DNA of 1,271 nt from a phage: the sequence record OR846114.1, one strand, 5' to 3'. A program made the translations under genes and the position numbers. Position 1 is the stretch's first letter. The number at the start of each line of letters is the position of its first letter. This document shows positions 124 through 1,124 of the stretch, piece by piece. Under the pieces are notes generated by a model, which made no database searches, was not told where the DNA came from, and saw only the letters and a program-made list of their open reading frames with translations.

Positions 124-147
124 CCTCGCACTCGCGGGGATTTTTTT
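124..147 (+). terminator. Rho-independent terminator-like hairpin followed by a T7 tract
   Basis: Stem CCUCGC (124-129) pairs with GCGGGG (134-139), 6 bp including one G-U wobble, with tetraloop ACUC, then A followed by TTTTTTT (141-147). The G-U wobble becomes a C-A mismatch on the minus strand, so the plus strand is the likely functional orientation. Confidence 0.45.
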
Positions 148-185: not shown

Positions 186-563
186 ATGATGGCAATGAAT
201 AAACGAGAAAAAGAACAACTTGAAAACGCTGTTCGCCTTATGGATATAAACCGATCGCTTAGATGGTCTGACTATGGAGCAGATCGCGATGTAGGCGTAC
301 CAGATAGCATCACCCAGTATGTTAACGGTTGGTCTATCAACACATATTCCTGCCGTGTATATAAATCATGGTCATCCACTGTATCTCATGGTGACGGATG
401 GGTTGAAAATGAAGAAAGACCCCGCTCCGCATCACAGAAAGGGATTGCGCAATACAGCACCAAAGAAAAGGCACTTAAAGCATTAAGGCATTGCATGGAA
501 ATGAAGTTTGCAGAAGCACTATACGAGATAGACCAGCAAATTCTCGCCACCGACGCGGAGTAA
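186..563 (+). CDS. Hypothetical protein, 125 aa, function unknown
   Basis: Open frame from ATG 186 to TAA 561-563, with alternative in-frame starts at 189 and 195; GGAG RBS at 178-181. Same strand as, and 96 bp upstream of, the excisionase-like gene. The translation is hydrophilic with predicted helical N- and C-terminal segments and a Trp/Tyr/Ser-rich middle. I see no Walker A, HExxH, CxxC pair or transmembrane segment, and I do not recognise the family. Confidence 0.6.
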   Translation: MMAMNKREKEQLENAVRLMDINRSLRWSDYGADRDVGVPDSITQYVNGWSINTYSCRVYKSWSSTVSHGDGWVENEERPRSASQKGIAQYSTKEKALKALRHCMEMKFAEALYEIDQQILATDAE

Positions 564-578
564 CAATGGAATCACACA

Positions 579-597
579 GCCTCATCGAGTGTGAGGC
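579..597 (+). other. Short hairpin in the spacer between the 125-aa ORF and the excisionase-like gene
   Basis: GCCTCA (579-584) / TGAGGC (592-597) with a 7-nt loop. There is no clear U-tract after it, so it is not called a terminator. Confidence 0.25.
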
Positions 598-646
598 CTG
601 TGCATTTCTCAAGATATCCCTTCCCTCCAAGTTCGATTCCCAAACC

Positions 647-650
647 GGAG
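647..650 (+). promoter_or_regulatory. Shine-Dalgarno-like GGAG for the excisionase-like gene
   Basis: GGAG lies 9 nt upstream of ATG 660. Confidence 0.4.
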
Positions 651-659
651 ATAAAACCT

Positions 660-863
660 ATGCGCGAATTACGCGATGACTCGCTTGTTGACTTGAAGTT
701 CATGATGGAGGATTCTGGAATGGGCAAGACCTTCATTTACTCAGAAATTAAGAAAGGCCGGTTGCCTGTCCCTCACAAAATCGGTAGCGCATCCAGATGG
801 GTTTATGCCGACTACCAAAACTGGAAACGCAGCCACTTCTCCCCTCTCCAAAATGCATCATGA
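660..863 (+). CDS. torI: AlpA/TorI-family winged-helix DNA-binding protein, probable prophage excisionase (recombination directionality factor), 67 aa
   Basis: Translation from ATG 660 is MRELRDDSLVDLKFMMEDSGMGKTFIYSEIKKGRLPVPHKIGSASRWVYADYQNWKRS... The block DSLVDLKF..GKTFIY..I..G.LP......RW.Y closely parallels E. coli KplE1 TorI as I recall it and the AlpA/Vis family signature. Size is typical for the family (about 65-70 aa). Stop TGA at 861-863. The GTG at 591 suggested by the ORF track would add a Pro-rich 23-aa extension with no RBS, so ATG 660 is preferred. The symbol is assigned by homology from memory and is unverified. Confidence 0.75.
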   Translation: MRELRDDSLVDLKFMMEDSGMGKTFIYSEIKKGRLPVPHKIGSASRWVYADYQNWKRSHFSPLQNAS

Positions 864-874
864 ATTGCCTTTGT

Positions 875-894
875 GGGCATAATTGCGGGCATAA
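875..894. repeat. Direct repeat GGGCATAA x2 with a 4-bp spacer (12-bp periodicity)
   Basis: GGGCATAA at 875-882 and again at 887-894, separated by TTGC, located between the excisionase stop and the att core. Seen directly; any role as a protein-binding site is inference. Confidence 0.3.
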
Positions 895-948
895 AACTCT
901 TCACTTCTGTAATTTCTTATAAATACCCTGCACTTACCATATTCATTA

Positions 949-968
949 GGTGTCTGCAGGGGACACCA
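949..968 (+). mobile_element. Candidate attR core: 3'-terminal fragment of a tRNA-Arg gene flanked by inverted repeats
   Basis: Positions 954-968, CTGCAGGGGACACCA, match from memory the last 15 nt of E. coli argW tRNA-Arg(CCU): T-stem 3' arm, acceptor 3' arm, discriminator A and CCA. Upstream sequence 894-953 has no T-loop, so this is a partial duplicate rather than a tRNA gene. GGTGTC (949-954) and GACACC (962-967) form 6-bp inverted repeats around the 7-bp TGCAGGG, which resembles core-type sites flanking an overlap region for a tyrosine integrase. Confidence 0.5.
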
Positions 969-1077
969 TTGATACCCAGGACATTCTCTTCTTGCTGCAT
1001 AGTCTTTCGAGCGGTTCCCCTTTCATGTTGCTTTTATTGCCCCTATGCAATATCACCGGACATGCCATACGTTCAGC

Positions 1078-1111
1078 AAAAAGTCGTCATCGGCCGGTTA
1101 TGACCGATGAC
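1078..1111 (-). terminator. Possible intrinsic terminator for the convergent outer-membrane protein gene
   Basis: On the minus strand, stem GTCATCGG (complement of 1104-1111) pairs with CCGATGAC (complement of 1086-1093) with a 10-nt loop, then GAC and TTTTT (complement of 1078-1082). It starts 14 nt downstream of the minus-strand stop codon. The stem is only about 50% GC. Confidence 0.35.
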
Positions 1112-1124
1112 ATCCCGATGTGGT

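What the first reader, a model, noticed from the sequence alone, without database searches (positions are those of the whole stretch)
949..968. Candidate prophage attR core: a 15-nt tRNA-Arg 3' end inside an inverted-repeat core site
Positions 954-968 read CTGCAGGGGACACCA, which matches my recollection of the 3' end of argW tRNA-Arg(CCU) through the terminal CCA. The 60 nt upstream carry no tRNA body, so this is the partial duplicate left at the distal junction of an element inserted into the 3' end of a tRNA gene. The segment is framed by 6-bp inverted repeats (GGTGTC / GACACC) around a 7-bp centre, the layout expected for integrase core-binding sites flanking an overlap region. An excisionase-like gene ends about 90 bp to its left. 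If correct, this pins the mobile-element/host boundary to single-base resolution within this window.
Basis: partly seen in the sequence, partly recalled or inferred. Interest (0 to 1): 0.7.

Follow-up and report, generated by a model that had tools for sequence, protein, structure and literature searches.

The report
Prophage attR at Salmonella argW tRNA
This is the right-hand junction (attR) of a P22-like prophage inserted into the 3' end of the Salmonella tRNA-Arg(CCU) gene argW; it is a well-known, ordinary kind of site, the same 15-base core used by E. coli KplE1, Sf6 and HK620.

Summary
Window 954-968 (CTGCAGGGGACACCA) equals the last 15 nt of argW tRNA-Arg(CCU), and no tRNA body lies upstream.

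- **Breakpoint:** homology to free P22-like phage genomes (Emek, g341c) stops at 968. In those genomes the same core lies between xis and int.
- **Host side:** from 969 on, the DNA is Salmonella chromosome (intergenic region, then the pgtE 3' end).
- **Empty site:** in S. enterica subsp. diarizonae an intact argW is followed directly by the homologue of 969 onward.
- **Other end:** attL loci with 96-99% identical integrases carry an intact tRNA-Arg(CCU) 163 nt upstream of int. Their left flank matches that empty site up to the tRNA end.
- **Same element:** a 42-kb provirus contig 100% identical to the window has int at its other end.
- **Proteins:** the upstream gene is 53% identical to TorI, the KplE1 excisionase. 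The related integrase is 62% identical to IntS.

Two caveats. The boundary is a 15-bp shared block, and the crossover can only be placed within 955-965. The GGTGTC/GACACC repeat as core-type binding sites is plausible, because the left arm GRTGTC is conserved across 40 divergent flanks, but it is unproven. This is already-known biology (E. coli K-12 annotates the equivalent fragment as pseudogene pawZ) and of low interest.

The parts
186..563 (+). 125-aa phage ORF of unknown function (context; the last gene before the xis module)
   Evidence: ORF. Matches phrog_28248 (unknown function, E 4.9e-72). No Pfam or NCBIfam hit. Named hypothetical protein in Salmonella and in Salmonella phage 29485.
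660..863 (+). xis, a recombination directionality factor (TorI/AlpA-type excisionase, 67 aa)
   Evidence: 53% identical to E. coli KplE1 TorI (E 7e-21). Its only PDB hit is 1Z4H, Tor inhibition protein (E 4.8e-15). Matches phrog_66, excisionase. GGAG lies 8 nt before the ATG.
872..893 (+). two direct copies of TGYGGGCAYA (872-881 and 884-893): candidate arm-type integrase-binding sites of the P arm
   Evidence: 2 matches against 0.01 expected. The direct repeat is family D1. The same motif occurs twice direct and once inverted in the P' arm of phage Emek attP, next to int (L001 3524-3577). Binding itself is inferred.
918..937 (+). conserved P-arm block (ATMCCCTGCACTTA) between the arm-type repeats and the core; possibly an IHF or accessory site
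   Evidence: Positions -31 to -19 are 80-100% conserved in 40 distinct family flanks, while -18 to -7 vary. The block contains an inverted copy of TGCAGGG (I8). The IHF consensus match at 918-930 has 2 mismatches, which is chance level.
949..954 (+). left arm of the inverted repeat, GGTGTC. Bases 949-953 are phage-only; 954 is also the first base of the shared core. Candidate core-type site C.
   Evidence: GRTGTC is 95-100% conserved at 5 of 6 positions (the R position is G or A) in 40 distinct phage-side flanks. The tRNA has GATTCC at this place.
954..968 (+). 15-bp common core, identical to the 3' end of argW tRNA-Arg(CCU) including CCA; the strand exchange happened within it
   Evidence: Phage homology ends at 968. 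Homology to the empty attB starts at 954. It is the published KplE1/Sf6/HK620 core CTGCAGGGGACACCA(T) (PMC2951348; PMC8787464).
955..961 (+). candidate 7-bp overlap (crossover) region, TGCAGGG, at the centre of the inverted repeat
   Evidence: Inference from symmetry. Natural variants only confine the crossover to 955-965: attP of L087 shares identity with the tRNA only from 955, and the junctions of L010, L149 and L160 lose identity after 965.
962..967 (+). right arm of the inverted repeat, GACACC (tRNA acceptor-stem end, discriminator and CC); candidate core-type site B'
   Evidence: Its conservation is already imposed by the tRNA, so it says nothing on its own.
969..1124 (.). Salmonella chromosomal intergenic DNA between argW and pgtE, including the pgtE intrinsic terminator at 1085-1112 on the minus strand
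   Evidence: Homologous to the DNA directly after argW in S. diarizonae. Terminator. Absent from all free-phage genomes.
1125..1271 (-). 3' end of pgtE (omptin outer-membrane protease), a host gene convergent with xis
   Evidence: The translation equals the C-terminus of Salmonella PgtE. Pfam Omptin, followed by the pgtABCP-like genes, in L005, L006, L011 and L013.

Best explanation
Window 864-968 is the attR site (P arm plus core) of a P22-like temperate phage (Lederbergvirus, with an Emek/g341c-type int-xis module). The phage integrated by tyrosine-integrase site-specific recombination into the 3' end of the Salmonella enterica tRNA-Arg(CCU) gene argW.

In the free phage the order is xis, attP, int. 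Integration splits attP. The intact tRNA, rebuilt with phage-borne 3' sequence, and int end up at attL about 41.5 kb to the left. xis and a 15-bp copy of the tRNA 3' end (954-968) end up here, abutting host DNA at 969 (intergenic region, then pgtE).

Shown: the identity of the core, the breakpoints, the empty site, the attL architecture, and the homology to TorI and IntS. Inferred: Int binds GGTGTC and GACACC through its catalytic domain and exchanges strands across a roughly 7-bp overlap inside 955-965. Int binds the TGYGGGCAYA repeats at 872-893 through its N-terminal arm-binding domain. A bend in the conserved 918-937 block brings arm and core together. Xis directs excision, as TorI does for KplE1.
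For: The core equals the argW 3' end, with no tRNA body in the window.

Matches to free phage genomes stop at 968, and those genomes have xis, the core, a 163-nt spacer and then int.

The right flank is Salmonella pgtE and pgtABCP.

The Campbell model can be reconstructed. The attL loci L086 and L023 align to S. diarizonae attB up to the last base of argW (position 3131). The window and L005 align from position 3117 onward. The two alignments overlap by exactly the 15-nt core.

Partners mix and match exactly at the core. The same phage arm is joined to at least 6 different right flanks: the pgtE side, its own int, two kinds of satellite int, and E. coli dsdC. The same host flank is joined to at least 4 phage arms and to the tRNA.

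The provirus contig IMGVR_UViG_2923282131_000003 is 100% identical to the window and has int at its far end. A tandem double lysogen, L012/L013, has the two copies 41,692 bp apart in one genome.

Xis is 53% identical to TorI and Int is 62% identical to IntS. The published core of KplE1, Sf6, HK620 and Kapi1 is identical. K-12 annotates the attR fragment as the 15-nt pseudogene pawZ.
Against: The attL end of the very genome the window came from could not be read. The 100%-identical provirus contig is cut at codon 39 of int, so its tRNA is not seen.

The empty site was obtained only from subsp. diarizonae, where the flank is about 90% identical and the tRNA discriminator is G and not A. No empty site was obtained from subsp. 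enterica.

No experiment here shows that this copy can still excise. Binding sites and the position of the overlap are inferred from conservation and symmetry only.
Confidence: 0.95

Rival explanations
1. The site is a genuine attR, but the 7-bp overlap is not TGCAGGG (955-961) and GGTGTC/GACACC are not the core-type binding sites. The crossover lies elsewhere in the shared block, for example 957-963 or 959-965, and the inverted repeat is incidental to the tRNA sequence.
For: Natural variants confine the crossover only to 955-965, which leaves five possible 7-bp registers. The right arm is tRNA sequence and is conserved anyway. A 6-bp inverted repeat alone is common in this window (34 repeats). 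In attB the left arm is GATTCC, which matches only 3 of 6 positions of the symmetric partner.
Against: The phage-side arm GRTGTC is nearly invariant in 40 distinct flanks whose neighbouring 12 nt vary freely. That points to a protein-binding constraint exactly where a core-type site is expected. The repeat is best in attP, as it is in lambda.
Confidence: 0.3
2. The 15-mer is the scar of a different element, such as a P4-like satellite or a genomic island that also uses argW, or an internal junction of a tandem array. On this view it is not the terminal attR of the P22-like prophage.
For: argW is shared by several elements. In L007-L010 the same xis and core are followed by the integrase of a P4-like satellite instead of host DNA.
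Against: In the window the left flank is the xis module of the P22-like phage right up to the core. The right flank is the host sequence that follows argW in an empty site. It is therefore the terminal junction, as in L005, L006, L011 and L013.
Confidence: 0.03
3. The match is a chance resemblance, or a decayed tRNA pseudogene left by duplication or deletion of argW, unrelated to site-specific recombination.
For: None beyond the shortness of the match (15 nt). S. arizonae (L015) shows that this locus can also be rearranged, with a tRNA remnant near pgtE.
Against: The expected chance count is 0.01 even when 2 mismatches are allowed. The homology breakpoints of dozens of independent loci fall exactly at 953/954 and 968/969. 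The fragment sits at a fixed 94 nt after xis in loci whose Xis proteins are 58-100% identical to the window's.
Confidence: 0.01

Closest known systems
KplE1 (CPS-53) cryptic prophage of E. coli K-12: argW-intS ... torI-attR (pawZ)-dsdC
   Same: Identical 15-nt core, CTGCAGGGGACACCA. The tRNA and int lie at attL, and the RDF and tRNA fragment at attR, all in the same orientation. The RDF is 53% identical and the integrase of the related phage 62% identical. Repeated arm-type motifs lie between the RDF gene and the core (PMC2951348).
   Different: The host flank is Salmonella pgtE instead of E. coli dsdC. The published KplE1 core is 16 nt (it ends in T); here phage and host diverge right after CCA, so the shared block is 15 nt. 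The arm-type motif differs: TGYGGGCAYA here, against GGGTAAAA-like in K-12. The prophage is a full-length P22-like genome of about 41.5 kb, not a 10-kb remnant.
Sf6, HK620, CUS-3 and Kapi1: P22-like phages that integrate into argW
   Same: The same attP core lies between xis and int, so the two genes end up at opposite ends of the prophage (PMC8787464; PMC3509656). The virion type is also P22-like.
   Different: Those are E. coli and Shigella phages with TorI-identical or near-identical RDFs. This is a Salmonella lineage (Emek, g341c and relatives) with a diverged Xis and Int.
Phage lambda attR (P-O-B')
   Same: A heterobivalent tyrosine integrase. Core-type inverted repeats around a 7-bp overlap inside a 15-bp common core. 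Arm-type sites and a bending-protein site in the P arm.
   Different: In lambda, int and xis are adjacent on one side of attP, and the Xis sites lie in the P arm (attR). In the KplE1-type module xis and int flank attP, and the five TorI sites were mapped on attL (PMC3509656). The target is a tRNA gene 3' end, not an intergenic site.

Membership tests
argW-specific IntS/TorI (KplE1/Sf6/HK620-type) recombination module | Common core identical to the 3' end of argW tRNA-Arg(CCU): CTGCAGGGGACACCA(T) | tested here: met
   Window 954-968 equals the argW 3' end and the published core. The 16th base, T, is present at attR (969) but is not shared with this phage's attP, which has C there.
argW-specific IntS/TorI (KplE1/Sf6/HK620-type) recombination module | TorI-type RDF gene as the last prophage gene, reading towards attR | tested here: met
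   ORF 660-863 is 53% identical to TorI. PDB 1Z4H is its only hit. It matches phrog_66, excisionase. The core lies at a fixed 94 nt after the stop codon in all related loci.
argW-specific IntS/TorI (KplE1/Sf6/HK620-type) recombination module | IntS-type tyrosine integrase with an arm-binding domain, directly downstream of an intact argW at attL, in the same orientation | tested here: met
   Met in related loci, not in the window itself. The tRNA-Arg(CCU) lies 163 nt before int in L023, L086, L028, L038, L041, L043 and L063. Int has Arm-DNA-bind_3, Phage_int_M and Phage_integrase domains and is 62% identical to IntS. The contig 100% identical to the window has int at its far end.
argW-specific IntS/TorI (KplE1/Sf6/HK620-type) recombination module | Order xis, attP, int in the free phage genome | tested here: met
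   Phage Emek (L001): xis 3044-3307, core 3398-3412, int 3576-4745. The same order appears at the junction of the tandem lysogen L012.
argW-specific IntS/TorI (KplE1/Sf6/HK620-type) recombination module | An unoccupied attB exists in which the tRNA is followed directly by the attR-side host flank | tested here: met
   S. enterica subsp. diarizonae L016. Not obtained for subsp. enterica (searches gave no hits).
argW-specific IntS/TorI (KplE1/Sf6/HK620-type) recombination module | Int and RDF actually bind the arm and core sites and catalyse excision | not testable with these tools
   Only motif recurrence and conservation are available. Biochemistry exists for KplE1, not for this phage.
Lambda-type core architecture (inverted core-type sites around a 7-bp overlap) | Inverted repeat flanking a 6-8 bp spacer inside the region of attP/attB identity | tested here: inconclusive
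   The repeat is present and its phage-side arm is conserved. The position of the overlap is only bounded to 955-965, and no cleavage mapping is available.

The most novel reading that the evidence does not exclude
The strongly conserved 13-nt block in the P arm (window about 921-937, ATMCCCTGCACTTA) carries an inverted copy of the crossover sequence TGCAGGG. It could be an accessory integrase site, or a DNA-structure element specific to argW-type intasomes, that is missing from the KplE1 site descriptions I could read. The more ordinary reading is that it is the IHF bend site.
Probability: 0.1. Interest if true: 0.3.

Novelty: already known. Interest (0 to 1): 0.08.

Why it matters
It matters only for annotation. 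It fixes the right end of a roughly 41.5-kb P22-like prophage in Salmonella at 954-968. It shows that the neighbouring virulence gene pgtE is host DNA and not phage cargo. It also confirms argW as a shared landing site for phages and satellites in Salmonella as well as in E. coli. It raises no new mechanistic question.

Tried and rejected
- **Empty site in the GTDB genome collection:** an exact search for core plus host flank in genome contigs found nothing. A degenerate pgtE C-terminus pattern then recovered only the subsp. arizonae and diarizonae representatives. The arizonae locus has no argW next to pgtE.
- **Empty site in metagenomes:** two scans for the subsp. enterica empty site found nothing.
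- **Host flank in phage records:** the only record with the host flank is the same attR, in a contaminated assembly.
- **Papers:** the KplE1 site-mapping papers (J Biol Chem 2007, Virology 2010) are not held. The published core-type and IHF site coordinates could therefore not be compared.
- **IHF site:** consensus matches occur at chance frequency (16 found, 15 expected). The IHF assignment of 918-937 stays a guess.
- **RNA families:** Rfam gives nothing meaningful in the window.
- **Hairpin upstream of xis (575-598):** no more stable than shuffled sequence (z -1.1).
- **Xis family assignment:** Pfam and NCBIfam give no hit for Xis. The assignment rests on TorI, PDB and PHROGs.

Full report
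**Observation.** Window 949-968 is GGTGTCTGCAGGGGACACCA. The last 15 nt, 954-968 (CTGCAGGGGACACCA), are identical to the 3' end, including CCA, of E. coli K-12 argW tRNA-Arg(CCU). ARAGORN places that gene at L004 810-884, with the core at 870-884. ARAGORN finds no tRNA in the window. The 75 nt ending at 968 align to argW genes only over those 15 nt. Even with two mismatches allowed, only 0.01 matches are expected per window. The 6-bp inverted repeat around a 7-bp centre is present, and the upstream ORF ends at 863.

**What lies on each side.** Megablast against phage genomes shows that P22-like Salmonella phages (vB_SemP_Emek, g341c, NM-3 and others) match window 557-968 and stop exactly at 968. 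In Emek the order is xis (COG3311-type), the same core at L001 3398-3412, a 163-nt spacer, and then a tyrosine integrase with arm-binding, central and catalytic domains. To the right of 968 the window is Salmonella chromosome. The minus strand from 1125 to 1271 encodes the exact C-terminus of the omptin PgtE, preceded by its terminator at 1085-1112. In complete genomes that carry the window's Xis, the next genes are pgtE and the pgtABCP-like cluster.

**Campbell reconstruction.** The type strain of S. enterica subsp. diarizonae has an unoccupied site. An intact argW (L016 4870-4944, minus strand) is followed directly by the homologue of window 969 onward and then by pgtE. IMG/VR proviruses whose integrases are 96-99% identical to Emek's have an intact tRNA-Arg(CCU) 163 nt upstream of int on the same strand (L023, L086), and five more distant loci show the same arrangement. 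BLAST against the empty site shows that the attL loci match it up to the last base of the tRNA (position 3131). The window and L005 match it from position 3117 onward. The two sets overlap by exactly the 15-nt core. This is the signature of integration by reciprocal exchange within the core.

**Evidence from the same element.** The provirus contig IMGVR_UViG_2923282131_000003 (42,367 nt) is 100% identical to the whole window (L099) and carries the integrase gene at its opposite end in the same orientation (L058). That places attL about 41.5 kb to the left. One genome (CP077680.1) has two copies 41,692 bp apart. The first xis is followed by the core and int (an attP-like junction), and the second by the core and pgtE. 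This is a tandem double lysogen. A metagenomic provirus (L043/L160) holds both the tRNA with int and the xis with core fragment on one contig.

**Partners recombine exactly at the core.** The same phage arm (…TCATTAGGTGTC) is found joined to the pgtE flank, to its own int arm, to the int arms of two kinds of P4-like satellite, and to E. coli dsdC. The same pgtE flank is found behind at least four different phage arms, including a phage whose Xis is only 64% identical (L150).

**Proteins.** The 67-aa ORF at 660-863 is 53% identical to TorI, the experimentally characterised RDF of KplE1. Its only PDB relative is TorI, 1Z4H, and it falls in the PHROG excisionase family. Pfam and NCBIfam give no hit. 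The Emek integrase is 62% identical to IntS.

**Mechanism.** The origin of the site is shown by the comparisons above. How it works is inferred from the KplE1 and lambda paradigms and from conservation.
- In 40 distinct phage-side flanks, the six bases just left of TGCAGGG are GRTGTC and nearly invariant. The preceding 12 nt vary freely. The tRNA has GATTCC at that place, so the conservation is not needed for homology with attB. It fits a core-type Int site (C) paired with GACACC (B').
- Two direct copies of TGYGGGCAYA at 872-893 (0.01 expected) recur three times in the P' arm beside int in Emek. They fit arm-type sites for the N-terminal domain of Int.
- A second conserved block at about 921-937 lies between the arm repeats and the core, where a bend site would be expected. 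The IHF consensus cannot be distinguished from chance here.

Bases 954-968 are common to phage and host, so the junction is a 15-bp block and not a single base. The last phage-only base is 953 and the first host-only base is 969. Natural variants narrow the crossover only to 955-965. One attP (L087) shares identity with the tRNA only from 955. Several junctions (L010, L149, L160) lose identity after 965. The register 955-961 suggested by the symmetry is one of five possible 7-bp windows.

**Comparison with what is known.** KplE1/CPS-53 in E. coli K-12 is bordered by the duplicated core CTGCAGGGGACACCAT, with argW-intS at one end and torI at the other (PMC2951348). The RefSeq record annotates the 15-nt attR copy as pseudogene pawZ. 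Sf6, HK620, CUS-3 and Kapi1 use the same attP core between xis and int (PMC3509656; PMC8787464). The window is the Salmonella counterpart, with a diverged Xis and Int pair and pgtE in place of dsdC as neighbour. The window's Xis is listed in 7,406 blocks of the assembly collection, so this junction is very common in sequenced Salmonella.

**Verdict.** The feature is an ordinary, already-known kind of prophage junction, and interest is low.

Noticed in passing
window 872-881 and 884-893; L001 3524-3546 and 3567-3577: The motif TGYGGGCAYA occurs as two direct copies just after the xis stop codon. In phage Emek attP it occurs again as two direct copies plus one inverted copy next to int, and the inverted copy overlaps the int start codon. 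These are likely arm-type Int sites. The one over the int start suggests autoregulation of int, as reported for intS.
   Followed up: partly
window 918-937 (with 926-932 against 955-961): A block ATMCCCTGCACTTA is conserved in 40 distinct family flanks and contains an inverted copy of the core centre TGCAGGG. As single-stranded DNA, 915-975 folds better than most shuffles (z -2.2). Its function is unknown. An IHF site is possible, but the consensus match is at chance level.
   Followed up: partly
L007-L009 10295-11642; L010 10295-11785: In other Salmonella genomes the same xis and core are followed not by pgtE but by the integrase of a P4-like satellite (Ogr/Delta, primase, Psu, P2-capsid-like genes). 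Phage and satellite therefore sit in tandem at argW. In L010 the shared block ends at GACA, before the CCA.
   Followed up: partly
L012 and L013 (CP077680.1, 41,692 bp apart): A tandem double lysogen of the same P22-like prophage. The internal junction is an intact attP-like xis, core, int arrangement.
   Followed up: partly
L002 4001-4292 (E. coli 1919D3): Only the distal part of this xis module and the attR core (window 678-969, 91.5% identical) survives in an E. coli chromosome. It is wedged between an IS3 transposase and dsdC. This is a prophage remnant at the E. coli argW-dsdC hot spot.
   Followed up: no
L015 480-560 (S. enterica subsp. arizonae): No argW lies next to pgtE. A short stretch, ttgcaggttcg, resembling the argW T-arm is fused close to the pgtE terminator, with unrelated AT-rich DNA upstream. 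The locus appears to have been rearranged or partly deleted.
   Followed up: no
L016 4870-4944: S. diarizonae argW has G at the discriminator position (GACGCCA). The window and all lysogen attL tRNAs have A (GACACCA). Some related attP sites also carry G. Such heterologies could be used to map the crossover in natural lysogens.
   Followed up: no
window about 556-557: A mosaic joint. Many phages share 557-968 (the xis module) but not the 125-aa ORF at 186-563, and others share 1-619 only. The segment 556-619 is the most widely shared piece (it also occurs in epsilon34 and in an E. coli prophage). It holds a hairpin at 575-598 that is not more stable than shuffles.
   Followed up: partly
window 124-139 and 29-56: A terminator-like hairpin with a T-run lies at 124-139 on the plus strand. 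A perfect 10-bp inverted repeat lies at 29-56. Both are upstream of the 125-aa ORF and probably separate early-left phage transcription units.
   Followed up: no
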